Under the pieces are notes generated by a model, which did not search any database, had not been told where the DNA came from, and saw only the letters and a program-made list of their open reading frames with translations. From IMG/VR virus record IMGVR_UViG_3300012940_000030, positions 1-55,307 of that record: a stretch of DNA of 55,307 nt; one strand, written 5' to 3'. Source of the DNA: a virus. Its lineage: Duplodnaviria > Caudoviricetes. This document shows positions 2,559-41,368 of the stretch, piece after piece. A program made the position numbers and the translations under genes. The first letter of the stretch is position 1; every line of letters begins with the position of its first letter.

Positions 2559-3892
2559 GGCTGCACCCGCTTTCCGCCGTTCTGTGAGCGCTGACGGAGA
2601 ACGCGATAGAGGGCCGTTGCGGCGAGTACGGCCGTCATCAGGAACGCCAGCTTGGCGGGCCATGACAGGCCAGCCGTCTGCACTATCTGCTGAGCTGATC
2701 CGACAGTTGTAGAGGTTTGCTCTGCCACGAGCGGGAGGGCATGAACGGCCCCGGAGATGCCGCCCGTGATGTCATTCCAGTAGCTCGCCACGCCGCCAAC
2801 TAGGGCTGCGAACCAGGCGTAAATCTGCATCGTGATCGACGGCGAGTCCTTTGCCACATCACGATAGCGAACCGTGCCGTTAGGCTGGCGCTTGTCTGGG
2901 ATCGGGCGATTGATACCCAGAGCCTTCGATTTGATCTGAGCGAACGTGTACCACTTGCGAACCGTAGAGTTGCTGACGTTGCCCTCTACGCACTCAATGC
3001 GTTTGCCTTCGAGGTCTACGGTGACGACGGTTCCGGTGTGGCCCTGCCACAAAGAGTTGCCTCGGGCCCAGACAAGGGCGTCACCACGACGGACTAGCTC
3101 GGGCTGATCCTTGTCGATCTGGATTCCGGGAGCCGCACCCGCTCCGGTTCTGACCAAGTTGCGGGCCACAAGAATGTCATCGTTGTCCTTGTCTTCGACT
3201 TCCGCGCCGCACTTCTTGCGAATGGCTGAGACCGTGAGCTTGCACCACGCCGTCTTGTCGTCCTCCATGCGGGGAAGGCCCAGCGTGTCGTAAAAGTCAT
3301 CCATGAACTGGTAGTTTCCCGGTCCAGGCTTCTCCCCCTTGCCGACGTAGGTCAGGGCCATGTCGGCAATCCGGTCGCCTAGGTCATTGGACGGACCATC
3401 TGCGGCCGGAATGCGGAACGGGATGCGCAGCCCCTTGCGTGCGGATGCAGGAGTAGGGAAGGCCAGGGCGTGCGCCTGCTTCCACTCCTTAGCCGTCATC
3501 GGGTACTCTTTGCCCGCCTCGTGGAAGGCCATGGCTTTGGCGAATTTGATTCCCGTCGATGGCGCGCGAATGTAGGCTGCGGTAAGCGTGTCGGACTCAG
3601 AGAGACCGGTGCGCTTGCAGACGACCTTGCAGTAGGTGTCAACGTGGTTGCCGCCAGACCAGCGCTTCAGAGCGTTGCGAACGGTCAACCCTGTGTAGCG
3701 CGTGGCCAGCAGATCGAATTGAGCAGCAGCACCCTGCACCTTCGTCGGGAAGGTTGCGATGGTGTTGCCCTGGCCGTCGTTGAGCGTTGTTTCCTCGCTC
3801 GCGCCGAACTTGCGGGCACTTGACGTCGGGCCGCCTAAAGCCATGGCGCCGGGATTGGAATGACGCAGGCTCGCGGGTTCGATGAAGGCCAT
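2555..3892 (-). CDS. multidomain endolysin (lysozyme-like N-domain + CHAP/TIGR02594-like peptidase + C-terminal membrane helices)
   Basis: SLRHSNPGAM motif; TAWC...GD.LVW.RG...QGHTG...EGN CHAP signature; hydrophobic C-terminus; GAGGGAG RBS. Confidence 0.75.
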   Translation of the reverse strand: MAFIEPASLRHSNPGAMALGGPTSSARKFGASEETTLNDGQGNTIATFPTKVQGAAAQFDLLATRYTGLTVRNALKRWSGGNHVDTYCKVVCKRTGLSESDTLTAAYIRAPSTGIKFAKAMAFHEAGKEYPMTAKEWKQAHALAFPTPASARKGLRIPFRIPAADGPSNDLGDRIADMALTYVGKGEKPGPGNYQFMDDFYDTLGLPRMEDDKTAWCKLTVSAIRKKCGAEVEDKDNDDILVARNLVRTGAGAAPGIQIDKDQPELVRRGDALVWARGNSLWQGHTGTVVTVDLEGKRIECVEGNVSNSTVRKWYTFAQIKSKALGINRPIPDKRQPNGTVRYRDVAKDSPSITMQIYAWFAALVGGVASYWNDITGGISGAVHALPLVAEQTSTTVGSAQQIVQTAGLSWPAKLAFLMTAVLAATALYRVLRQRSQNGGKRVQP

Positions 3893-18008: not shown

Positions 18009-18584
18009 CTAATCCCTGACAGCATCGACGATCAGCGTTCTGCCGATCAATTCGGGGACAACGGGAGAAACCTTGTCGGCCTGGCCAAACCATGCGGTTA
18101 CGCGCCAGCCGCATTCCTTGAGACGCTTCGTGAACTGTGCCAGCGTGTAGTGGCGCTGGTGAAATGGGTTCTTGCGCGGATCGAACGGGAACACGTCTTC
18201 GTTCGGAACGCTCGCGAGAAGTCTGGGAGCCGCCTCGCGCGCCGCCGTCAGAAACCGCTTGGGGCGCTTCAGGTGCTCGATGGTCTCGAAGCTAACGACC
18301 ACGTCAGACTGTGGAAGCTCTGGGCATTCCAGATCGCACTTTACCCAATCGATAGTTTCGCGTGTCCAGTGCTTCTTAGCGTATGCGAGAGCTAAATCGG
18401 ATACGTCTATCCCGACCACATCACAGCCGACATCAGCGAGCATCGCAGAGCCATACCCACACCCGCATGCGGCATCGATAACACGCTTACCGCTGATACG
18501 ATTAGCCGCCCACCTGTACCGGGAAAGGTGATCGAGGCGGATGTCAGCGAGGTCGGCTTTGAACAAACGCTCTTGTGCTGCCAT
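18009..18584 (-). CDS. class I SAM-dependent methyltransferase (glycan-type)
   Basis: HLSRYRWA, VIDAACGCGYG, GIDVS, SFETIEH, SVPN, NPFH. Confidence 0.9.
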   Translation of the reverse strand: MAAQERLFKADLADIRLDHLSRYRWAANRISGKRVIDAACGCGYGSAMLADVGCDVVGIDVSDLALAYAKKHWTRETIDWVKCDLECPELPQSDVVVSFETIEHLKRPKRFLTAAREAAPRLLASVPNEDVFPFDPRKNPFHQRHYTLAQFTKRLKECGWRVTAWFGQADKVSPVVPELIGRTLIVDAVRD

Positions 18585-18636: not shown

Positions 18637-19818
18637 TTAGGCCGAAGCCGCAACCACGCCGTCAGCAGCGGCAGCGGCGAACGTCGTGTGAACGCCAAAG
18701 TCCTTCAGGCCACCACCGCCAATCGGAGCCTTGGCGAGCTTGCCGATGCCATACGACATCTCGATGCCAACGCCCTTCTTGAAGCCGTAGTCGTCCTCCG
18801 AACGCTTGGTCGGCGCCGGGTTCTGAACCCAGGGCATGCCCAATGCGTTCTGCCCGAGCAGGAAGATCGGCGTCAGGTCGCAGGAGTCCGCACCCTTCTC
18901 TTCAAGGTCGCCACCAAGAATAGTGTCGATCTCGGGGATTTCGGTCACGATACAGCCATCGAGCACGATATCGCCGCTGCGGAAGATCGGGTTTTTCTTC
19001 CAATCCTCACGCTCACGAGCGCGGGCCTCGCGGTTGGCCTGCTTGACTTCATCGGAGCCCGAGAAGTCACGGAAGGCGCGCGAGCCACAGGCCACGAGGA
19101 ACCATTCGGCGTTCGGTTCCTCGACCATGTACGGCGTGATGGTCGGCTGCGAACCCGACGTGTTCTGAGCACGACGCTTCATGAGACGAAGCATGTCGGC
19201 GTCGAACGTCATCGATGCCGTCACCGCAGCCAGCGAGTTGGCGTGATTGCCCGACACATAGTTTGCTGGGCTATCGCCATACAGGATGCGATCAGCGTTG
19301 TTCGTGTGCCAGGTGTTCTTCTCACCGGCCGAAGCCGCTGAATAGAGAATACCATTCACGCGCTGACCGGCATCCGTGCCGTGACCAGCAGGAGCCGCCG
19401 CGGATGGAATGGCCAAGAGAGCCTTGACGATCTCGTCGCGCTGCGTGCGCTGACCCCACTGCGTCAGAGCCGGGCGGGCCTGAGCAAGCGGGTCAAACGA
19501 CGACTTCTGAATCTGGTTCTTCTTGAAGACAACCGCGTTGCGAATCCAGTCGGTCCACATGCGGAAGCCGTAGGAGTCCATCTCTTCCTCGGCATCAACA
19601 AGCGAGCCGGAACCCATACCGGCGCCACTCATCACATTGATGAGGGGGATGTTCACCTGATCGCCGCCATCCTTGTTCTCATAGAACAGACGGATGATGG
19701 CGCTTTCGCCCTTGCCCATGTAGGGCGAAAAGCGGTTCTTGCGCAGGTAGTCAAAGAGCACCTGCTTGCGGAACTTGATTTCCGCGTTATTGGCGTGAGT
19801 AACCGAAGGGCCAGCCAT
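18637..19818 (-). CDS. major capsid protein, N4-gp56/DUF4043 family
   Basis: NRFSPYMG....IIR, GDQVNIPL, RNAV, NPIF, DYGFKKGVGIE, DFGV; follows the scaffold gene. Confidence 0.9.
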   Translation of the reverse strand: MAGPSVTHANNAEIKFRKQVLFDYLRKNRFSPYMGKGESAIIRLFYENKDGGDQVNIPLINVMSGAGMGSGSLVDAEEEMDSYGFRMWTDWIRNAVVFKKNQIQKSSFDPLAQARPALTQWGQRTQRDEIVKALLAIPSAAAPAGHGTDAGQRVNGILYSAASAGEKNTWHTNNADRILYGDSPANYVSGNHANSLAAVTASMTFDADMLRLMKRRAQNTSGSQPTITPYMVEEPNAEWFLVACGSRAFRDFSGSDEVKQANREARAREREDWKKNPIFRSGDIVLDGCIVTEIPEIDTILGGDLEEKGADSCDLTPIFLLGQNALGMPWVQNPAPTKRSEDDYGFKKGVGIEMSYGIGKLAKAPIGGGGLKDFGVHTTFAAAAADGVVAASA

Positions 19819-19861: not shown

Positions 19862-20872
19862 TCAGCGGCCGAGAGCTGCGTTGAAAAGCTCGTCCTCGCT
19901 CATGTGCTGAATGCCGGTTCCATCGCTTGCGGCGGCGGCGCCGGGCATCGTACGCAGTGAGGGAGGGAGCTGGGTTTTCAGGTTTGGACGGGCTGCTGGA
20001 GCGCCGGGCTGTGCCGCGGGCTGGCCAGTGGCTTGAGCCTTCGCGCGCTCAAGTGCCTTCGCGAGAAATTCAGGATCGTTCAGCGCCTCGTCCAACTTCT
20101 TCTGGACGTAGGATGCTGGGTCGTTCCCAATCTCGTCCAGCGTCTTGCGCTCGCGATGCCACGCGACAATCGAACCACCTGGATCGGCGGAGTTGAACAC
20201 GCGCGTAGCTGTCGCCCTGTCTCCGCCCTCAACGGCTTTGACGAAGGCTTCATAGGCTGGCGGGAAATCTTCCTTGTAAACGATGGCAGAGATGGCGAGG
20301 TTGTTTTCCAACCGTATCTTGCGCAACTCACCCTGGAAGCTATCGCGCTCACGGGCCAAACGTTCCTCCACAGAGCCAACAAAGCCCTCTGGATTCTCGA
20401 ACAGGTTGACGGGTTCTTGCTTGGGCTTTGTCAGCTCATCGAGACGGCGCTTAAGCTCAGCGCTTTCACGCTGTGCCTGCTCCCACTTCGCGGCGTGTGC
20501 TTTGGCCTCAGCCTCGGCACGTTCCGCACGCTCTGCGGCAGCTTTCTTCGCCTCACTGATCTCACGAGCACGCCACGACGGAATCCAGCCGTCCCTATCT
20601 TCTTTCGGGTCGGCCTTTGCTGGCTCTGCCGGTGCTGCGACCGCAGGGGCCTCCTGCTGTTGCGGCTCGGCTTCTGCCTTCGGTTCCTGTGGCGTCTCTG
20701 ACGGCTCGTCCTGTGACTTCGCGGCAAACCTGCCGTGTTCATCACGGGGCGGGCTGCCATCGCCCGACGCATCACTTACCGATGTTTCCTTGACTGGCGT
20801 CGGTTCCGCGCTAAATGCGGCATCGAAGATGTCAGATTCGGAAACAGACTCGTCCTGTTCGGTTCCGGCCAT
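19862..20872 (-). CDS. capsid scaffolding protein
   Basis: Acidic N-terminus with PRDEHGRFA, coiled coil, LPPSL near the C-terminus; directly before the capsid gene. Confidence 0.85.
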   Translation of the reverse strand: MAGTEQDESVSESDIFDAAFSAEPTPVKETSVSDASGDGSPPRDEHGRFAAKSQDEPSETPQEPKAEAEPQQQEAPAVAAPAEPAKADPKEDRDGWIPSWRAREISEAKKAAAERAERAEAEAKAHAAKWEQAQRESAELKRRLDELTKPKQEPVNLFENPEGFVGSVEERLARERDSFQGELRKIRLENNLAISAIVYKEDFPPAYEAFVKAVEGGDRATATRVFNSADPGGSIVAWHRERKTLDEIGNDPASYVQKKLDEALNDPEFLAKALERAKAQATGQPAAQPGAPAARPNLKTQLPPSLRTMPGAAAASDGTGIQHMSEDELFNAALGR

Positions 20873-20889
20873 AGCCTTACCCGTCCTTT

Positions 20890-21056
20890 CGCTATATCGC
20901 TGCGTTGCGGAAATTCGCCCTGTATCGCCGGGCGCTGGCGGTTCAGTTGCCCTTGTCGCCGGGCCAGCGCAGTGAGTTGCATCGCTATCGCGCGGTGCCA
21001 GCGGATGACCGGGCTAAGGCGCCGGTAGACCTTGCGTGATGTCGCTCACGCGGGCG
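20890..21056 (-). promoter_or_regulatory. tandem array of five CGC-NN-[stem]-GCGAYA-[stem] hairpins in the scaffold gene leader
   Basis: Five hairpins with different stems and the same loop motif (see findings). Confidence 0.75.
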
Positions 21057-21097
21057 AAATCGTTATTGGCAGAGAATCTGCCATTTAGACCCACTCG

Positions 21098-21490
21098 TTA
21101 GCCTTTGACCCATCCATAGTCATCCGGCCCCAGCCTGGACGCGCCGGGCTTAACCGGGACTTCGGGGCACTCCGGGGCCGGGCCAACGTAGCGCGGCGTA
21201 TGCCTAATGCGGCCTCTCTGGTGCGCGTAGGGAGCAAACGTACCGGAGGGGAACGGTTCCGACACACCCCTTTCGCTGACATCTGGCAGAGCGAACAATT
21301 CCTCCGGCGTCTCGTTCACCGCCTCGCGCAGCCCCTCAGAGAAATACAGCCACGTGCACTCCAAGGTGCGCTCCGGGCGGCCATCGATCTTCTCATGCAG
21401 CGTGCCCCGCACAATCAGCGGGCAGGCATCAAGGTCAACGTAAAGAGGCTGGTGGCTCTGGACCTGCGTGGCTTTAACCCGGCGCATCAA
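21098..21490 (-). CDS. hypothetical protein
   Basis: 130 aa, overlaps the stop of the previous gene. Confidence 0.55.
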   Translation of the reverse strand: MMRRVKATQVQSHQPLYVDLDACPLIVRGTLHEKIDGRPERTLECTWLYFSEGLREAVNETPEELFALPDVSERGVSEPFPSGTFAPYAHQRGRIRHTPRYVGPAPECPEVPVKPGASRLGPDDYGWVKG

Positions 21491-22020
21491 GCCTGCTCCT
21501 GGGCCTTGCGGACAATCACACGAAGCGCCTCGCGCTCCGCAACCGTTTCAGCATCGATCTCGCCTGACTTGGACAGAAGTTCCTCGACAGCCTTGATCAC
21601 CTTGAAGTCCGATGCCGCGAGCTGCTTCAGCGCGTCATTCATCGGCTTAGCGGCGTCAACGAGCTTTTTCTGTGCGGCCACCTGTGCCTTGAACTCGGCT
21701 AGACGCGCGGCTTCCTCTGCCGCCACTCGTGTTGCTTCGGCATCGGCATGAGCCTTAATCGCCGCCTGCTGTTCGTCGTCGATTGCAGCGGCCGTAACCC
21801 ACAGCCCAACATAGGGCGCGATGCGCTCGAACTCCTTGAAGGCGCGGCCCTCGCCATGCTGGTTCTCGACGAACCCAGGCCAGTCCTTGACCGCAGGATT
21901 CCATCGCATCACTCGCACGTCGCTCGGGGCCGCCGTCATCGCGACAAGCTTGCGCCCGTCGATGCTCACGGACTTGTCATCCGCGGTTACGACGATCAGG
22001 CTCTTGGTGTAGTCGGTCAT
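21487..22020 (-). CDS. hypothetical protein (tail-fibre-assembly-like C-terminus)
   Basis: AGGGA RBS; LAASDFKVIKA.E...REALR pattern. Confidence 0.7.
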   Translation of the reverse strand: MTDYTKSLIVVTADDKSVSIDGRKLVAMTAAPSDVRVMRWNPAVKDWPGFVENQHGEGRAFKEFERIAPYVGLWVTAAAIDDEQQAAIKAHADAEATRVAAEEAARLAEFKAQVAAQKKLVDAAKPMNDALKQLAASDFKVIKAVEELLSKSGEIDAETVAEREALRVIVRKAQEQA

Positions 22021-22035
22021 TGGTCGTCCCTATTC

Positions 22036-23961
22036 TCAGAACGGGAGTGATTGCTGGAGCGGATGCGGGTTCAGCATCGCTGGAGACATCTGCGGCATCG
22101 GCTCGGACGGGAACCCAGGCTGCGGGTTGATGTTGGGCCGCTCGAATGCTGCTCCCAAGCCAGGCATGGCCATAGGCGACCGGCTCAGCTTCTCAACCGC
22201 AGTGGCCGTAGACCCAAACGTATCGGCCCGCGTCTTGCCGGTCTCTGCCTTGATCTTACCCGTCTCAGCCTTTGTCTTCTCTGTCTTTGCAGCCTCCTGC
22301 TCAAGCGCGATGCGCTCGGCCTGCTGCTTCATCGGATTCGGCTGCTGTGCCTGCTGCATCCGCTCACGGAGCTTCTTCTTGATGTCCGAGCGGATCGGCA
22401 GAAGGTCGACAAGAATGTCGGGCGGGATCGGCATGCCAGCTGCAAGGGCAGACTGAAGCGTCTCAAGCGCCTCCGCCATCGTGGTCACAACGTCGCCGGA
22501 CTCATCCAACTGGATGTCCACATCCAGCGAGCCCACGGCATTGACAAGAGCGGGGCGCCCGTACTCATCGACCTGCAAGCCGTTCAACTGAATGAACTGC
22601 ATCAGGCCCTCAGAATCGGTAACGCGAATCCAGCGCTCAGACTGCCAGTGGCGCTGTATGGCATTCCACATCTTGCGATAGACACGAAACTTCCATGAGC
22701 GGAATGCAATGATAAACGGGCCTAGCTCTGCCAAGCCCGCCTGTTGAAGCAACGCAATGGCTTTGCCGGAACTTCCGCTGCTAGCCTGTCCCAACTGAGC
22801 GGCGTTGGGTCCGAACCGGTCTAGGTCTTGCTTGGCTTCCTGGAGCAACAAGAGCTGGCCCTGGAAGTCCTGCGTTGTGTTGTCGGCCCAGATGTCCTGC
22901 CCAACCGTTACATTTGGTTCGACCTCAACCCAGCCGTCAGCACGTGCCCATTCCCTACGAGCGCGCTCAACGTCCTTGACGGCGCCCTTCCTGGAAATGA
23001 TGCGCCGTGAGTTGGAGATGTGCAGCAACCGGCTTGTGCGCTGGTTTACCTCATCTTGCGGCGTCTTCAGATTACGGAGGAACCCGTAGCGGTCGCCCTC
23101 GTGATCGACGAATGCCGAGTACATCTCGAACTTGTGCTGAGACTTATTGCGCTCATCCACCCACGGGCTGACCCCTTCGGCTAGAACAACGTTGCCGATA
23201 TGGAAGCACCATAACCACTTGTCTCCCACGCGATACCAGTGGTCCACCGCGCGAACCGTGCTGCGCATGGAGTTGGTCCAGACGACATCGCGATCACTGT
23301 CAATCGTGAAGTCAGAGCCAGACGACATAACGCCGTCTATATCCGCGGACTTGTCGGGAAACATCGCCTTCAGGACATCAACATCAACCCACTTCGACGT
23401 GCCCATATAGAGCGCGTCAGAGAAATCATCTTCGTAGGAACGTGGGTCGTAAAAGAACGTATCGGGCTGGACGAATCCGATGCCAACTTCTGGGTCGCCT
23501 TCGTCACCATCGATAAGGTCGAATTCGACTCCGCCGATGCCATCAATGGCGCCCGACCGACCGCACCGCGGCATGATCGAATCCCAATGCTGGGAAGACA
23601 TCGCGTACCGAAGAGTTTCGGTCGCAACGTCGGCACCATCAGAGTGCTTCGGGGTGTTCGGGAATGCCTTCGGGTCTTGCTTCAGTCGCTCAAGCAGACC
23701 AATGATTGCATTGACCTTGCGCGCGTACTCGTTCTTTGTCGTAACGGGCTGACCGCGGGCTTTGATGGCATCCATCTGCTCCTTGGTCCACTGCACCGCG
23801 TTGTAGTAGCGGCGCGATTCCTTCTGTTCTTCGACCTCGTTTGCCTTTTGGAAAACGTAATCGTTGAACTGCGAGCGCAGGCGGCCCAGGCTGAGGTAGT
23901 TGACCTCGGCGGGCTCCGCTTCCGGCGCTTTTGCTGTGTTCATCTCTGCTTCGTAGAGCAT
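22036..23961 (-). CDS. portal protein, P22-like
   Basis: YYNAVQWT...RGQP..T.N, FFYDPRS...DFSDA.Y, QDEVNQR, SGKAI motifs. Confidence 0.92.
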   Translation of the reverse strand: MLYEAEMNTAKAPEAEPAEVNYLSLGRLRSQFNDYVFQKANEVEEQKESRRYYNAVQWTKEQMDAIKARGQPVTTKNEYARKVNAIIGLLERLKQDPKAFPNTPKHSDGADVATETLRYAMSSQHWDSIMPRCGRSGAIDGIGGVEFDLIDGDEGDPEVGIGFVQPDTFFYDPRSYEDDFSDALYMGTSKWVDVDVLKAMFPDKSADIDGVMSSGSDFTIDSDRDVVWTNSMRSTVRAVDHWYRVGDKWLWCFHIGNVVLAEGVSPWVDERNKSQHKFEMYSAFVDHEGDRYGFLRNLKTPQDEVNQRTSRLLHISNSRRIISRKGAVKDVERARREWARADGWVEVEPNVTVGQDIWADNTTQDFQGQLLLLQEAKQDLDRFGPNAAQLGQASSGSSGKAIALLQQAGLAELGPFIIAFRSWKFRVYRKMWNAIQRHWQSERWIRVTDSEGLMQFIQLNGLQVDEYGRPALVNAVGSLDVDIQLDESGDVVTTMAEALETLQSALAAGMPIPPDILVDLLPIRSDIKKKLRERMQQAQQPNPMKQQAERIALEQEAAKTEKTKAETGKIKAETGKTRADTFGSTATAVEKLSRSPMAMPGLGAAFERPNINPQPGFPSEPMPQMSPAMLNPHPLQQSLPF

Positions 23962-25382
23962 CAGATTGAGAGTATCCCGTTGCCGCCGCTATTGCGGGAG
24001 GACGTGTAGTCAGAGCGCTTTTTCTTGATGTCTGCTGGAGATGGGGCCTGCCAATGCACCACCTGGGGGAATAGCTCGGTGAAGGCCCAAACCAGCGCAT
24101 CAACGTCGTCCGCCGTCGTGTCGCCTTCGATCCCGAGCGGCGTAAACAGCACCATGTGGTCTTCAAGCTCTGGGAATGATCCGACATGACTCACGCGGCC
24201 TTGCTCGTACAGCGCGGCGATTGGCTCTGCTCTCGTGACCTTGCCTCGGCTAGCGCGTACAGCCTTGTACGGAGCAATGTCCCGAACAGTTCTGATGGTC
24301 GCCTCGACCATCTCGCCGCCCTGGTTTATCTCGCCTACGATCAAATCGGCCTTGTGCAGGTCAAACGCTGCCACCGCGCGCCGCGCCCATCCGTTCGGAC
24401 CCAGTGCGCAAGAGGCGTCTTCAAACACATATCCGCGGCCATCAACACCGACACCCGCGACAACGATACCTGTCTTTGCGCCCCGGTCCTGCTCGCCGCC
24501 ACCGCCTGACATCGCTGCCGGGTCAACCGCGACCACGACGCGCTGCATGTCCGGTACTTCCCCTGGCCTTCTGCGGTGCGCCTCGATGTTCTCACGTGAC
24601 CAGAGCGCGCCGGGCGCATCATCAAGGATTTCGGCCGATAGCTCCTGCCTGCCAAGCCGCGTCCCCTCATAACGCTCCTTGACCTGAGCCAAGAATTTCG
24701 GGGCCAAGTTCGCCGCGTTGTCGAAGGTTGAGCCCTTCGTGACGTGCGTTCCGGGTTGAGCGATAATCTCTTTCAGCAGCGGTATAGGACGCGGGGTCGT
24801 CGTGATCACAGTGCGCGGGTTCGTTCCCAGACGAAGCCCAAACTGCATATTATCCCACGTCTCTCTTGCGTACCGCCACTTGGCCAGCTCATCGCAAACG
24901 GCGGCCTCGTGTTGTGGGCCGCGTAACTGGTCGGGCTCTACTGCGTTGTAGAGCGTGGCGACCGCACCATTCGGCCATGTCAGGCGGCGCTTGGAGGGCT
25001 CGTAGTGCGGGCGAAAATCATTCGGATGAACAGACAGGATGCCCGACTCACCCTCTACAAGAACGTCTCGGGCATCAGCCGCCGTCTCGGCTATCACCGC
25101 AATGCGGCCAACCTCACCACGGGCTAGCGGAGTCTTGCCGCATGCGATCTTGCGCACCCACTCGGACGCTATCCTGGTTTTTCCGTAGCCACGGCCCGCA
25201 AGCACTAGCCACGTAGACCAATCACCGGGGGGCTCTAGCTGATCGGGGCGGCCCCAGAACTGCCAGTCAAAGGCCAGTTCTTCAGCCTGCCGCTCGCTCA
25301 GTTCTGAGAGTATTGCTGTTCGCTGCGCCTCTGGAAGCGAGGCCAGCAATGCGGCTTGAGATAAGCTCGCGGGCACTGACAT
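23961..25382 (-). CDS. terL: terminase large subunit
   Basis: AGRGYGKT Walker A, LRGPQ, CDE Walker B, TTTP, VAVDP, DDVDALVWA nuclease motif. Confidence 0.96.
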   Translation of the reverse strand: MSVPASLSQAALLASLPEAQRTAILSELSERQAEELAFDWQFWGRPDQLEPPGDWSTWLVLAGRGYGKTRIASEWVRKIACGKTPLARGEVGRIAVIAETAADARDVLVEGESGILSVHPNDFRPHYEPSKRRLTWPNGAVATLYNAVEPDQLRGPQHEAAVCDELAKWRYARETWDNMQFGLRLGTNPRTVITTTPRPIPLLKEIIAQPGTHVTKGSTFDNAANLAPKFLAQVKERYEGTRLGRQELSAEILDDAPGALWSRENIEAHRRRPGEVPDMQRVVVAVDPAAMSGGGGEQDRGAKTGIVVAGVGVDGRGYVFEDASCALGPNGWARRAVAAFDLHKADLIVGEINQGGEMVEATIRTVRDIAPYKAVRASRGKVTRAEPIAALYEQGRVSHVGSFPELEDHMVLFTPLGIEGDTTADDVDALVWAFTELFPQVVHWQAPSPADIKKKRSDYTSSRNSGGNGILSI

Positions 25383-25824
25383 CCTTCGTCTCGATTGGTC
25401 CGCCGTCTCGACCGCTCAGTTCTTGAGCGACAACATCGCGGTAATCTTCGCGGAAACGGTTCTTCATCTGGAAGATGTACGCGGTGGCGTTGAAGCCCTG
25501 CCGCATCATGTTGATCTGCCCGGCGCCTTCCCACCACGCTAAGGCAATGTCGTAGGCGTTTTTAAGGGCGACGGAAAATTCATCGTGTTGCTTGGACCAC
25601 TCGTTCAGCGTGTCCCTGTTTACGCCTAGGCAAGCCGCGATCTGCGCTCGGCTTTTACCGTCAGCGGCGAGGTCAAGCACAAGATCGCAGAACGATGGAT
25701 CATACTTGGACGGACGTCCCACCTTGCGGATGTCCAGGGCCGGTGGAAGCTCTGCAAACGGCTGCTTCGGTGCACTGGCCCGCTTCTTAGGCTTGCCGCC
25801 CTCGTCCTTTGGTTCGTCACTCAC
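25282..25824 (-). CDS. terS: terminase small subunit
   Basis: GRPSKY, HTH, WWE, IFQMKNRF, ELSGRDGGPI; upstream of terL. Confidence 0.88.
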   Translation of the reverse strand: MSDEPKDEGGKPKKRASAPKQPFAELPPALDIRKVGRPSKYDPSFCDLVLDLAADGKSRAQIAACLGVNRDTLNEWSKQHDEFSVALKNAYDIALAWWEGAGQINMMRQGFNATAYIFQMKNRFREDYRDVVAQELSGRDGGPIETKDVSARELISSRIAGLASRGAANSNTLRTERAAG

Positions 25825-28063: not shown

Positions 28064-28266
28064 CACCGACCCAGCTTAAGGAGGCCCGGCTCAGGCTGGG
28101 CCTCACCCTAGATCAAATGGCGAAGATGCTGGGGTATGAGAAAGAAAACGCTCGATCCCAGGTCCACCACATGGAAACTGGCAAGCGCCCAATCAGGCCC
28201 GCACAGCGACGGCTCGTTGAGGCCTATTCCGAGGGATATCGTCCGAAGGATTGGCCTTCAACCTAG
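28060..28266 (+). CDS. XRE-family HTH regulator
   Basis: MTPTQLKEARLRLGLTLDQMAKMLG...METGKRPI. Confidence 0.85.
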   Translation: MTPTQLKEARLRLGLTLDQMAKMLGYEKENARSQVHHMETGKRPIRPAQRRLVEAYSEGYRPKDWPST

Positions 28267-28807
28267 CTCTAGCTCCCATTCTACTCGAACGCTCCTGGGG
28301 CGTTTCCACATCCTCAATCCCAATCGTAATCGGAGTGGCCCGCCCGAATATCATCACCTCGACTTTGACCAGCCCGTCCTTGGCCCAATCGACAATTCCT
28401 GAATGGGCCGCAAACACACCGGCTTTGACGATGATTTCCGTTCCCTTCTCATACGTCTTTGACGGGGCTTTCTCTGGCTCTCTGCTGAGTTGCACAGACC
28501 ATTGGCGCATTTCATGGTTCTTGATCTGGACCGGGATGCCGTCGAACGTAACGGGGGCTTTGATCGCCCGGCAGAATGCCAGCTCGTGAAGGTCTGGCTT
28601 CTCTTGGTTGCGGGCGACGAACACGTAGCCGTTGGCTGCGATGACCTTGTGCCTAACGGTTGCCCCTATTCGACCACCCTTGCCTGAGCGCGTCTTGACG
28701 ATCTGGCGAGGTACGCAGGCATAAATCCCTCGCCGTAGGAGCTGGCGGGCTGATGATAGCTCGCGCTGTGGTTCGGTGCGGCACATGAACCATACGTGAC
28801 CCGCCAT
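28193..28807 (-). CDS. NusG-family antitermination factor (NGN + KOW)
   Basis: WFMCRTEPQRE, GYVFV, GVFAAHSGIV, VEVMIFGRATPI. Confidence 0.9.
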   Translation of the reverse strand: MAGHVWFMCRTEPQRELSSARQLLRRGIYACVPRQIVKTRSGKGGRIGATVRHKVIAANGYVFVARNQEKPDLHELAFCRAIKAPVTFDGIPVQIKNHEMRQWSVQLSREPEKAPSKTYEKGTEIIVKAGVFAAHSGIVDWAKDGLVKVEVMIFGRATPITIGIEDVETPQERSSRMGARARLKANPSDDIPRNRPQRAVAVRA

Positions 28808-28820
28808 GCACTTCCCTTCT

Positions 28821-29213
28821 CTAGTGGACCAATTCTTCGGCCATCCTCTGCGCACGCTGTACGGTCGTACGGCCCACATTGTAGGCCCTGGCAATCTCTC
28901 GCTGTGACCCAGTAGCCCGGCCCTCTGCGATGGCCTTGACGATGCTGGTGACTACCTTGCGGTCGCTCTGTGCTGGCCTCTTCGCTGGCTTGTTGGGGCG
29001 GCGCAAAGCCTTTGACTTACTGGGGTGGGCCACCTGGGGCACCGGGGCCGGTTCTGGCTCAACCTCGATGGCCCTGACGGGGAGCGGGGCCGGTGGGGCA
29101 ACGTGGCCCTCGGCTACCAGCTTCCGCACCGCCTGACTGTCCATCCAATCCTCTACGCGGGCGCACAATCTGCGAACGAATCGCTCAAATGGGCCGGGCA
29201 CATGCGAGATCAT
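28821..29213 (-). CDS. protein with C-terminal HTH
   Basis: SQREIARAYNVGRTTVQRA. Confidence 0.7.
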   Translation of the reverse strand: MISHVPGPFERFVRRLCARVEDWMDSQAVRKLVAEGHVAPPAPLPVRAIEVEPEPAPVPQVAHPSKSKALRRPNKPAKRPAQSDRKVVTSIVKAIAEGRATGSQREIARAYNVGRTTVQRAQRMAEELVH

Positions 29214-40641: not shown

Positions 40642-40889
40642 TTGATCCTCTGAATTAGTACGGGCGATGCGCGGATTTCACGGCATGCAAAAATCCCCTC
40701 AGGGCCACCATCGCCAACCGCATCTGCGCTTTCGTCAGTTCGATCCGCCCGCTGACCGATGGACCTTCCGACGATGGTGGGAACAGTCACTTTGCGAGAT
40801 GCAGGATGGGGACGGCTCATCACCGTGCCGATGCCTCGCGGCAAGGGCTTCCTGCACCCGGCAAAATGACCGGCACTCAAACGCTACGG

Positions 40890-40954
40890 AGAAAAGCGGC
40901 CGGTGATCAGAACGAGACCCGGCCTAAGTCTAGGGAGGAACGCCCAAGGTGGGC
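40890..40954 (-). ncRNA. MmgR/suhB (alpha-r8)-like small RNA
   Basis: Hairpin, GUUCCUCCCUAGACUU, GGCCGG..CCGGCC hairpin, U-rich tail. Confidence 0.65.
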
Positions 40955-41368
40955 TGGTACTGCTCTAGGGAACAGCACCGCGAAGCCGATCAGAGTGGCC
41001 TGGCCAGACCTTGCTGCCTGCTCCGGTGCCTATCTGGCTAACCGGCTCCGTCCCAACCCTGCCAGCTTTCAGGACGATGGTTTGGAGTGCAGGTATCCAA
41101 TCGACTTCGCGCTACTGTCCTCAACGCCACAGCAGGCCCCTGGGTCCTCAACCTCGCGCATCATGGGTGAGACCACCGTGCGCACGCGGTTCGTGGCCGC
41201 TGTCTCGCCAGGGGCCAGCTCTAGCGCTGGCTACTCGGAACTAACGACCGGGGAGTGGCTGCCCTCACAAACCACCCCCCGGTCTCGGCTACCCCCGCCG
41301 ATGCCCTTACGGGCCGTTCCATCGGCAATGGGAAAGTGTACGTCGCACTCGCGCCACGGTGGCGTGCT

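What the first reader, a model, noticed from the sequence alone, without database searches (positions are those of the whole stretch)
20890..21056. Array of five GCGAYA-loop hairpins, each a possible mini-pseudoknot, in the scaffold/capsid leader
Seen on the minus (sense) strand: CGCcc-GCGUGA-GCGACA-UCACGC; CGCug-GCACCGC-GCGAUA-GCGAUGC; CGCug-GCCC-gGCGACAa-GGGC; CGCcag-CGCCC-gGCGAUAca-GGGCG; CGCaa-CGC-aGCGAUAua-GCG. The last unit abuts the AAAGGA Shine-Dalgarno region. The stems all differ but pair, while the loop and the 5' CGC are constant, which is internal covariation. The 5' CGC is complementary to the loop GCG, so each unit could form an H-type pseudoknot. Known: P22 scaffold autoregulates its synthesis post-transcriptionally. 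Inference: a multivalent protein-binding RNA that senses free scaffold or capsid protein and sets head-protein stoichiometry.
Basis: partly seen in the sequence, partly recalled or inferred. Interest (0 to 1): 0.8.

Follow-up and report, generated by a model that had tools for sequence, protein, structure and literature searches.

The report
Tandem mini-pseudoknot RNA leader before scaffold gene
The five repeats are real and fold into a row of tiny RNA pseudoknots just ahead of a phage's scaffold and capsid genes; the same uncatalogued element occurs in dozens of related uncultured phages and probably sets how much head-building protein is made.

Summary
Observation confirmed. On the minus strand, 21056-20890 holds five units of the form CGC, 2-3 nt, variable stem, GCGAYA loop, stem. 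The last unit ends at the AAAGGA ribosome-binding site of a scaffold homologue (19862-20872), which the capsid gene follows.

Five GCGAYA in 160 nt was reached in 0 of 300 simulations.

The element is conserved. 91 of 124 non-redundant leaders of scaffold homologues carry 1-5 such units.

Loops starting GCG have a 5' CGC and loops starting ACG have a 5' CGU: 175 Watson-Crick and 4 G-U among 192 anchored units. The tool count gave CG 23, UA 19, with 0 of 500 shuffles as high.

No Rfam family matches. Five literature searches found no description.

Function is inferred only. I favour a cis-acting post-transcriptional operator next to the ribosome-binding site, bound by an unknown factor. Feedback by free scaffold or capsid protein is possible but untested, and the scaffold is acidic. 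P22 has only a 13-nt portal-scaffold spacer.

Earlier notes of this scan report tandem pseudoknot leaders before scaffold or capsid genes in other phages, on other DNA.

The parts
21034..21056 (-). Unit 1: S1 5' strand CGC 21056-21054, linker CC, S2 GCGUGA (21051-21046) / UCACGC (21039-21034), loop GCGACA 21045-21040 whose GCG pairs with the 5' CGC
   Evidence: (36.1 bits; it was in the model seed)
20979..21003 (-). Unit 2: CGC 21003-21001, linker UG, S2 GCACCGC (20998-20992) / GCGAUGC (20985-20979) with one C.A mismatch, loop GCGAUA 20991-20986
   Evidence: 14.0 bits, not in the seed
20949..20969 (-). Unit 3: CGC 20969-20967, linker UG, S2 GCCC (20964-20961) / GGGC (20952-20949), loop gGCGACAa 20960-20953
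   Evidence: 13.0 bits; the L002 orthologue has CCCC/GGGG
20916..20940 (-). Unit 4: CGC 20940-20938, linker CAG, S2 CGCCC (20934-20930) / GGGCG (20920-20916), loop gGCGAUAca 20929-20921
   Evidence: 13.9 bits
20890..20909 (-). Unit 5: CGC 20909-20907, linker AA, S2 CGC (20904-20902) / GCG (20892-20890), loop aGCGAUAua 20901-20893; ends directly at the ribosome-binding site
   Evidence: 14.0 bits; orthologous last units in L006/L007 have CGU...ACGAGA
20870..20889 (-). AAAGGA Shine-Dalgarno-like stretch (20889-20884) and ATG (20872-20870) of the scaffold gene
   Evidence: GCGAAAGGACGGG is conserved in L002, L006 and L007
19862..20872 (-). Scaffold-protein homologue, 336 aa, acidic (pI 4.83)
18637..19818 (-). 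Major capsid protein, 393 aa
   Evidence: phrog_334, E 1.7e-54
21004..21033 (-). 30-nt spacer between units 1 and 2. In this window only, the minimum-energy fold pairs it with the ribosome-binding site and start region
   Evidence: not reproduced in L002
21098..22020 (-). Two ORFs of unknown function (177 aa 21487-22020; 130 aa 21098-21490) lying between the portal gene and the array; absent from relative L002
22036..23961 (-). Portal protein, 641 aa
   Evidence: phrog_156, E 6.4e-90

Best explanation
The array is RNA. It is the untranslated leader of the scaffold-capsid part of the late messenger, folded into five small H-type pseudoknots in a row.

Each unit has a constant 3-bp helix, 5' CGY paired with the first three loop bases RCG. 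This helix is interlaced with a variable 3-8 bp hairpin helix. A 2-nt linker crosses the hairpin helix, and a conserved A-N-A stretch crosses the small helix.

The last pseudoknot sits flush against the Shine-Dalgarno sequence.

I propose that the array acts in cis on translation initiation of the scaffold gene, and probably on the stability of that mRNA segment. It would do so as a docking array for a trans-acting factor that recognises the constant CGY/RCG helix with its A-rich strand. Occupancy of the last unit would then decide 30S access.

The factor is unknown. A head protein giving assembly feedback is the leading candidate. A host component such as the ribosome or a ribonuclease is the alternative.

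Shown: the fold, its conservation and its fixed position. Inferred: that it is read as sense RNA, that a factor binds it, and the effect on expression. The confidence given is for the functional proposal (factor-bound operator); for the fold itself I would say about 0.9.
For: Fold:
- Stems differ but pair between the window and L002. Unit 1 is GCGUGA/UCACGC against GUCGCUG/CAGCGAC, and unit 3 is GCCC/GGGC against CCCC/GGGG.
- In 24 distinct units of one geometry, all 4 stem pairs change on both sides. The covariation score is 0.603 against 0.118 shuffled, 0 of 500. These units had been selected for pairing.

Pseudoknot helix:
- The set was 221 unique units, chosen only by loop motif plus a stem of at least 3 bp. 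Of these, 192 have a CG 1-4 nt 5' of the stem.
- The base after that CG against the first loop base gave U/A 100, C/G 75, U/G 4, and other combinations 13.
- Fisher's test gave 4.8e-40, ignoring relatedness.
- The tool count on 45 distinct rows gave CG 23, UA 19, UG 1, other 2. That is 98.5% paired against at most 42.2% when the partner is slid, with 0 of 500 shuffles as high.
- Y matches its own unit's loop in 194 of 198 cases. It matches the previous unit's loop in 37 of 93 and the next unit's in 39 of 93.
- Six of 90 stem-sequence groups contain both CGC/GCG and CGU/ACG versions.

Specificity of place:
- 195 of 391 loop motifs in leaders (37.5 kb) carry stem plus pseudoknot signature.
- The figure is 30 of 1594 on the same strand elsewhere (541.6 kb) and 47 of 1155 on the other strand.
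- A second model finds its strong hits in whole phage records only in the scaffold leader.

Position:
- In 69 of 91 leaders the last unit's loop starts 19-29 nt before the start codon.
- The array stays next to the scaffold gene when ORFs are inserted after the portal gene.

Recognition:
- The C-G and G-C pairs of the small helix are invariant in all 45 rows.
- A4 and A6 of the loop are part of the search motif, so their constancy is not independent evidence.
Against: - No expression or binding data exist.
- Strand of the transcript cannot be read from wobble pairs. Internal G.U is 9 against A.C 8. In the pseudoknot pair, U.G is 4 against C.A 5.
- No candidate RNA-binding protein was found. 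The scaffold is acidic.
- ORF177 and ORF130 are not conserved.
- A NusG-family gene occurs in only 2 of 13 array-bearing records.
- Related phages carry a different-sequence tandem pseudoknot in the same place. Notes of this scan report further kinds in unrelated phages. This could mean that the architecture alone is what matters, not a specific partner.
- The whole-leader folding energy is not exceptional.
- A 3-bp helix is marginal without tertiary contacts or a partner (inference from recalled nearest-neighbour energies).
Confidence: 0.45

Rival explanations
1. Autogenous assembly sensor. Unassembled scaffold or capsid protein binds the repeated pseudoknots cooperatively and shuts off its own translation. 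This is a special case of the best explanation.
For: - Multiple units in a row.
- The last unit abuts the ribosome-binding site.
- The element is tied to the scaffold gene and not to the portal gene.
- It is confined to that leader in whole phage records.
- The head module is the only gene set seen in common among array-bearing records.
- Autoregulation of P22 scaffold is in print. I saw only the title of Wyckoff and Casjens 1985, in a reference list.
Against: - The scaffold is acidic, pI 4.83, with no basic domain.
- Scaffold proteins share only 25-54% identity, yet the RNA motif is nearly constant.
- P22 has a 13-nt spacer and no such leader.
- No binding test was possible.
Confidence: 0.2
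2. Protein-independent boundary module. A compact, nuclease-resistant, Rho-resistant spacer uncouples the highly expressed scaffold and capsid cistrons from the weakly expressed terminase and portal cistrons. It would stabilise the downstream mRNA after processing and keep the ribosome-binding site free.
For: - The array fills the whole gap from the upstream stop codon to the ribosome-binding site. The first CGY lies within -18 to +9 nt of the portal stop in 18 of 65 loci with a recognisable portal.
- It sits where the required protein copy number jumps (established virion stoichiometry, recalled).
- Unit number varies from 1 to 5.
- A second sequence class of tandem pseudoknots occupies the same place in relatives.
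- Terminator-like hairpins occur in or before the array in several relatives.
Against: Pure structure does not explain why two of the three small-helix pairs never change in 45 distinct rows while the third switches repeatedly. It also does not explain why the same CGC/GCG helix is constant in the second class.
Confidence: 0.3
3. Transcription-level element. The RNA hairpins or pseudoknots recruit an antitermination factor (lambda nut/boxB, HK022 put or LoaP-type) so that RNA polymerase reads through terminators into the head genes.
For: - Terminator-like hairpin plus U-run lies inside the array, after two units, in L006, L007, L065, L066 and L068.
- It lies just before the array in L047/L050 and in phage CBW1004C-Prop1.
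- The window encodes a NusG-family protein.
Against: - The array lies about 5 kb inside the late operon, not at its start.
- No terminator is found in the window's array on the sense strand.
- A NusG-family gene is present in only 2 of 13 array-bearing records, and in 1 of 3 that are at least 90% complete.
- Most units lie after the terminator and against the ribosome-binding site.
Confidence: 0.07
4. Tandem small-ligand riboswitch, in the manner of guanidine-II hairpins with ACGR loops or small pseudoknot riboswitches.
For: - Small conserved pseudoknots lie next to a ribosome-binding site.
- Loops contain ACGA or GCGA.
- The tandem arrangement fits.
Against: - No Rfam family is found even at E up to 10, nor at gathering score in 19 relatives.
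- Loops are 6-9 nt, not tetraloops.
- The loop CG pairs in cis with its own flank.
- No rationale links a metabolite to a scaffold gene.
Confidence: 0.04
5. Not sense RNA. It would instead be a DNA-level array of protein-binding sites (for example for the small terminase), an antisense RNA, or a decoy RNA mimicking a type III antitoxin.
For: - Spacings of 28-32 nt between four of the loops are close to three helical turns.
- Pairing alone cannot tell sense from antisense.
- Type III antitoxins are tandem pseudoknot repeats (recalled).
Against: - Spacing is not conserved: L002 has 52, 60, 26 and 29.
- Stems covary instead of being conserved.
- The variable distance between CGY and RCG (4-12 nt) is incompatible with a rigid double-stranded DNA site.
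- No promoter-like site is found on either strand.
- Units are not near-identical repeats.
- The downstream gene is the scaffold, not a toxin.
Confidence: 0.04

Closest known systems
Phage T4 gene 32 translational operator (leader pseudoknot; autogenous control)
   Same: A small H-type pseudoknot sits in the 5' leader of a phage gene whose product is needed in stoichiometric amounts. Control is post-transcriptional. A catalogue paper notes that this operator too has no Rfam model (PMC10690425, passages seen).
   Different: - T4 has a single pseudoknot followed by an unstructured tract that the protein coats (recalled).
- Here there are 1-5 tandem units, the last flush with the ribosome-binding site, separated by short linkers.
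- No binding protein is known here.
E. coli rpsO mRNA pseudoknot bound by ribosomal protein S15 (entrapment of the 30S subunit)
   Same: A pseudoknot lies at the ribosome-binding site, and its occupancy by a protein could decide initiation (recalled knowledge).
   Different: In rpsO there is a single pseudoknot that contains the ribosome-binding site itself. Here the site lies just 3' of the last unit and is not part of the fold.
Upstream pseudoknot domain of tobamovirus 3' UTRs (consecutive small pseudoknots that enhance translation)
   Same: Several small H-type pseudoknots lie head to tail in a viral untranslated region, with 3-bp helices (recalled knowledge).
   Different: That domain is in a eukaryotic RNA virus, in the 3' UTR and next to a tRNA-like end. 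There is no sequence relation.
Guanidine-II riboswitch (mini-ykkC, tandem hairpins with ACGR loops)
   Same: Tandem hairpins have variable stems and constant ACGR-type loop letters next to a ribosome-binding site. A loop CG makes the key pairing.
   Different: There the loops are tetraloops and kiss each other. Here the loops are 6-9 nt and pair with their own 5' flank. No Rfam hit was found.
Tandem pseudoknot leaders noted earlier in this scan (e1-5348251, e1-3482143, e1-6236651, e1-6262051, e1-6276725)
   Same: Rows of small pseudoknots lie directly before scaffold or capsid genes of other phages and are absent from Rfam. These are AI notes, seen only as short summaries.
   Different: They are on other DNA. 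No look-alike of this window's sequence is in the index. At least one (e1-6236651) is the CGCC/GGCG class, which I also saw in relatives.

Membership tests
H-type RNA pseudoknot (structural class) | Two helices in the order a-b-a'-b' | tested here: met
   The order is 5' CGY (a), stem 5' arm (b), loop RCG (a'), stem 3' arm (b'). Helix b-b' covaries. Helix a-a' covaries at its third pair, CG 23 against UA 19; 175 of 192 are Watson-Crick.
H-type RNA pseudoknot (structural class) | Loop lengths able to span the helices | tested here: met
   The linker is 2 nt in 145 of 215 units, with a range of 1-4. Nothing lies between the stem and RCG in 138 of 215. ANA plus 0-3 nt follows RCG. That these lengths suffice is recalled stereochemistry and was not computed.
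Any Rfam 15 family | Match to a covariance model | tested here: not met
   Window 20000-22000 at E up to 10 gave only two chance microRNA hits elsewhere. There were 0 families at gathering score in 19 relatives. In the whole window only suhB was found, at 40883-40961.
T4 gene 32-type autogenous operator | The product of the downstream gene binds the leader | not testable with these tools
   No RNA-protein prediction or binding data are available. The scaffold has pI 4.83.
T4 gene 32-type autogenous operator | Unstructured tract between the pseudoknot and the ribosome-binding site for cooperative coating | tested here: not met
   The last unit ends at 20890 and AAAGGA starts at 20889. In 69 of 91 leaders the last loop starts 19-29 nt before the start codon.
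Guanidine-II riboswitch (mini-ykkC) | Two hairpins capped by ACGR tetraloops that pair with each other | tested here: not met
   Loops are 6-9 nt. Y pairs with its own loop in 194 of 198 cases and not with neighbours. No Rfam hit.
Lambda-type nut site (boxA/boxB) | Hairpin with a GNRA-like pentaloop near the start of the operon, with an N-type protein | tested here: not met
   Loops are hexa- to nonaloops. The array lies downstream of the terminase and portal genes. No N-type protein was searched for.
Type III toxin-antitoxin antitoxin RNA (ToxI-like) | Near-identical tandem direct repeats followed by a toxin gene | tested here: not met
   No tandem repeat was found by TRF in the array. Shared stretches are only 9-13 nt. 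The downstream gene is a scaffold homologue.
Phage scaffolding protein (the downstream gene) | Homology to a named scaffold, and a position between the portal and major capsid genes | tested here: met
   Profile against the Pam1 scaffolding protein: 96.5% probability, E 8e-10 over 88 columns. There is no Pfam or PHROG hit.

The most novel reading that the evidence does not exclude
The tandem pseudoknots are a multivalent read-out of head-assembly state. Unassembled scaffold or coat protein binds the constant CGY/RCG helices cooperatively and throttles its own translation. The same logic would have arisen repeatedly, with different pseudoknot sequences, in many lineages of tailed phages. This would give the long-unexplained scaffold autoregulation a concrete and general RNA mechanism.
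Probability: 0.2. Interest if true: 0.85.

Novelty: new variant of a known kind. Interest (0 to 1): 0.7.

Why it matters
Tailed phages must make hundreds of scaffold and capsid subunits per particle, but only a dozen portal subunits, often from one operon. How that step in expression is set is largely unknown outside a few model phages.

Here a compact RNA element with a clear, covariation-supported fold sits exactly at that step in about ninety related leaders. It matches no Rfam family. A second sequence class sits in the same position in relatives, including the cultured cyanophage Pam1.

This gives a defined, mutable target for reporter, probing and binding experiments on head-protein stoichiometry. 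It is also a small natural pseudoknot module that may be useful as a genetic part.

Tried and rejected
- Nucleotide search of the leader against cultured phages found no match.
- A single-protein scan of viral contigs with the scaffold found none. The capsid protein and a scaffold alignment did find relatives.
- Model R1, built from 11 units, is biased to 6-bp G-type units. It recovered only 34 hits in 21 loci, some of them spurious. I therefore did not use it for counting and made gap-free alignments by geometry instead.
- The wobble asymmetry test for strand was confounded at first by the A-rich 3' flank. When restricted to internal positions it was inconclusive, G.U 9 against A.C 8.
- Public runs: no RNA holder is listed. 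There were 5 DNA rows, one of which is possibly the source sample.
- The NusG paralogue as partner is rejected as a required factor. There was no homologue of the window's protein in 12 records, and the family occurs in 2 of 13.
- Sequestration of the ribosome-binding site by the spacer is present in the window's minimum-energy fold but not in L002. I do not treat it as part of the mechanism.
- P22 as a model: its spacer is only 13 nt.
- Literature: searches found no description of such a leader.
  - One search returned 247 papers, 20 listed by title and abstract.
  - One search returned 0, one search returned 11, one search returned 2 and one search returned 11.
  - The catalogue of over ten thousand candidate viral RNAs (PMC10690425) mentions five candidates upstream of a major capsid protein family and none for scaffolds in the passages I saw.
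  - Wyckoff and Casjens 1985 is not held. I saw only its title in a reference list.
- Rows dropped:
  - leaders identical over their last 120 nt (141 reduced to 124);
  - identical units (268 reduced to 221);
  - 29 of the 221 units that lack a CG anchor, left out of the pair table.
- Seven of the 30 signature hits outside leaders lie at -509, -380 or +19 to +21. These are probably leader units displaced by wrong start-codon calls.

Full report
**What is there**

The window is an 86%-complete viral contig of 55,307 bases. On the minus strand the gene order is as follows:
- small terminase-like helix-turn-helix gene (25282-25824);
- large terminase (23961-25382);
- portal (22036-23961);
- two ORFs without family matches (21487-22020 and 21098-21490);
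- a 225-nt gap;
- a 336-aa ORF (19862-20872);
- the major capsid gene (18637-19818).

The 336-aa protein has no Pfam or PHROG match. A profile of it and 18 homologues matches the annotated scaffolding protein of Pseudanabaena phage Pam1 at 96.5% hhalign probability. I therefore accept the name "scaffold leader".

There are two small qualifications: unit 2's stem has one C.A mismatch, and unit 5's stem has only 3 bp.

**Chance**

GCGAYA is not over-represented in the window, with 71 matches against 74.4 expected. Five copies on one strand within 160 nt occurred in 0 of 300 Markov simulations, and 3 simulations reached four.

A covariance model was built from 11 units of one geometry, only one of them from this window. 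It ranked the five units as the five best hits of the whole window on both strands. The array is therefore unique in this genome. It is not a tandem DNA repeat.

The leader's total folding energy is ordinary, z = -1.34. The signal lies in the pattern, not in stability.

**Relatives**

The nearest relative, L002, shares 83% capsid and 54% scaffold identity. It has the portal stop codon followed at once by five units and the same GCGAAAGGACGGG ribosome-binding region.

Orthologous stems differ but pair:
- unit 1: GCGUGA/UCACGC against GUCGCUG/CAGCGAC;
- unit 3: GCCC/GGGC against CCCC/GGGG.

The spacing between units 2 and 3 differs by 28 nt.

A scaffold alignment then brought in further loci:
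- 60 metagenome loci;
- 75 viral loci;
- 3 genome loci.

I assigned start codons in 141 loci and reduced the leaders to 124 non-redundant ones including the window.

Hairpins whose loop contains RCGANA (GCGAYA, ACGAAA, ACGAUA, ACGACA and others) are common in them. I found 268 units, 221 of them unique. Of the 124 leaders, 91 carry at least one unit with the full signature. The distribution is 21 with one unit, 29 with two, 29 with three, 11 with four and 1 with five.

My strict stem rule missed the window's unit 2, so the window is counted there as four.

**The pseudoknot**

That covariation is there.

I chose units only by loop motif plus a stem, and anchored on a CG 1-4 nt 5' of the stem. 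The next base against the first loop base gave the following among 192 anchored units (29 units had no anchor):

| Flank base / loop base | Units |
|---|---|
| U/A | 100 |
| C/G | 75 |
| U/G | 4 |
| C/A | 5 |
| other | 8 |

On a gap-free alignment of the 51 units (45 distinct) with 8 nt between CGY and RCG, the pair-counting tool gave CG 23, UA 19, UG 1 and other 2. That is 98.5% of cells paired, against 0.7-42.2% when the partner is slid, and 0 of 500 shuffles reached the observed score.

The flank base matches the loop of its own unit in 194 of 198 cases. It matches the loop of the preceding unit in 37 of 93 and of the following unit in 39 of 93. The pairing is therefore within a unit.

Relatedness inflates such counts. 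However, six stem-sequence groups, for example GAGCC/GGCUC and UCGC/GCGA, each contain both matched versions. The orthologous last unit is CGC...GCGAUA in the window and L002, but CGU...ACGAGA in L006 and L007. The switch has therefore happened several times.

The other two pairs of the small helix never vary. They say nothing for the fold, but they do suggest sequence-specific constraint.

**Geometry**

- The linker is 2 nt in 145 of 215 units.
- No base lies between the stem and RCG in 138 of 215.
- ANA plus 0-3 nt follows RCG.
- An A follows the stem in 155 of 215.

This is what a small H-type pseudoknot needs. A conserved A-rich strand crossing the minor groove of a short G-C helix is a familiar feature of such folds (recalled, not computed).

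**Where it sits**

Signature-bearing units are about 90 times denser in leaders than elsewhere in the same loci: 195 in 37.5 kb against 30 in 541.6 kb on the same strand. Seven of those 30 are probably leader units displaced by wrong start calls.

In 13 whole phage records a second model (A-type, 4-bp stem) placed all its strong hits in the scaffold leader. The best exception is one unit in record G011, more than 9 kb from the scaffold gene.

In 69 of 91 leaders the loop of the last unit starts 19-29 nt before the start codon, so its 3' arm touches the ribosome-binding site.

Where the portal gene is directly upstream, the array often begins within a few bases of its stop codon. Where extra ORFs are inserted, as in this window, the array stays with the scaffold gene.

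In 76 of 91 leaders the last unit is of the A type. The all-G arrays of the window and L002 are a minority.

**What it is not**

- No Rfam family matches.
- It is not a guanidine-II pair of hairpins. Loops are 6-9 nt, pairing is in cis, and there is no model hit.
- It is not a nut site, because it lies in mid-operon.
- It is not an antitoxin-like repeat.
- It is not a double-stranded DNA site array. Spacing and the CGY-RCG distance both vary, and stems covary.

Strand cannot be settled from wobble pairs. I infer sense RNA from four features:
- the fixed orientation;
- the contact with the ribosome-binding site;
- the unpaired conserved adenines;
- the absence of promoter-like sites.

**Mechanism**

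The fold, its conservation and its position are shown. Everything about function is inference.

The contact with the ribosome-binding site points to control of initiation. The invariant C-G and G-C pairs and the repeated units point to a factor that recognises each unit.

A second class of tandem pseudoknots occupies the same place in at least 21 of 126 leaders, including Pam1 and CBW1004C-Prop1. It has a variable first helix and a constant CGCC/GGCG second helix. It shares the CGC/GCG helix in mirrored topology, which fits a common partner.

Against a phage-encoded partner:
- the scaffold is acidic;
- a NusG-family gene is present in only 2 of 13 array-bearing records;
- the two ORFs beside the array are not conserved.

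My probabilities are:
- about 0.45 that it is a factor-bound operator, of which about 0.2 is feedback by a head protein;
- 0.3 that it is a protein-independent boundary module (stabiliser or insulator);
- small weights on antitermination, a ligand switch, and readings other than sense RNA.

P22 cannot serve as the mechanistic precedent, since its portal-scaffold spacer is 13 nt.

**Novelty**

Five literature searches found no description. A 2023 catalogue of over ten thousand candidate viral RNAs might contain it in supplementary tables that I could not open.

Notes of this scan report tandem pseudoknot leaders before scaffold or capsid genes in several other phages. None is on DNA like this window. 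I treat those notes as leads. They suggest that the architecture is widespread and that this is one sequence family of it.

I class it as a new variant of a known kind, namely cis-acting leader pseudoknots. The family is well defined and its partner is open.

Noticed in passing
L144 2640-2760 (Pseudanabaena phage Pam1), L143 2575-2610 (phage CBW1004C-Prop1), and leaders of L039, L040, L056, L106, L107, L110, L113, L114, L119, L124, L128, L130, L131, L135, L136: A second class of tandem H-type pseudoknot sits before scaffold homologues. It has a variable first helix and a constant CGCC in its loop, paired with a downstream GGCG. At least two units occur in 21 of 126 leaders. Pam1 combines two of these with two units of the CGU/ACG kind that have shorter loops (ACGCA, ACGUCA).
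   Followed up: partly
L006 about 2855-2895, L007, L065, L066, L068 (same position); L047/L050 just before the first unit; L143 2558-2585: A terminator-like G+C hairpin followed by a U-run lies inside the array, after two units, or immediately before it in several relatives. None is seen in the window's array.
   Followed up: partly
window 21098-22020 (-): Two ORFs (177 and 130 aa) with no Pfam or PHROG match lie between the portal gene and the array. L002 lacks them, and there the portal stop TAA is part of the conserved TAACGATTTCGC that precedes unit 1 in both.
   Followed up: partly
window 21004-21033 with 20860-20886 (-): In the window's minimum-energy fold, the spacer between units 1 and 2 pairs with the ribosome-binding site and the first codons, enclosing units 2-5. 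The L002 fold does not show this.
   Followed up: partly
window 20932-20939 and 20963-20970: A perfect 8-bp inverted repeat (sense GCGCUGGC / GCCAGCGC) joins the 5' flanks of units 3 and 4. If formed, it would compete with their small helices.
   Followed up: no
window 40883-40961 (-): An Rfam suhB/mmgR small RNA match above gathering score (44.2 bits, E 6.8e-06). This hints at an alphaproteobacterial host.
   Followed up: no
window 28193-28894 (-): A NusG-family protein: Pfam 22.1 bits against a cut-off of 22.2 on the protein, and 24.1 bits in the six-frame search. The family is present in only one other of 12 array-bearing phage records.
   Followed up: yes
L147 (record G011, 2955-2970, minus strand): A single unit (CGU, 2 nt, GGCCC, ACGAAAC, GGGC) lies more than 9 kb from the scaffold gene of that phage, about 60 nt before another ATG. 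It is the only convincing unit outside a scaffold leader.
   Followed up: partly
scaffold protein residues 42-49 and 97-107 (window 19862-20872): RDExGRF and PSWRxREI are invariant motifs in an otherwise variable, acidic N-terminal half across 19 homologues. Their function is unknown.
   Followed up: no
window 18009-18584 (-): A class I methyltransferase gene lies directly behind the major capsid gene (Methyltransf_11, E 2.3e-12).
   Followed up: no
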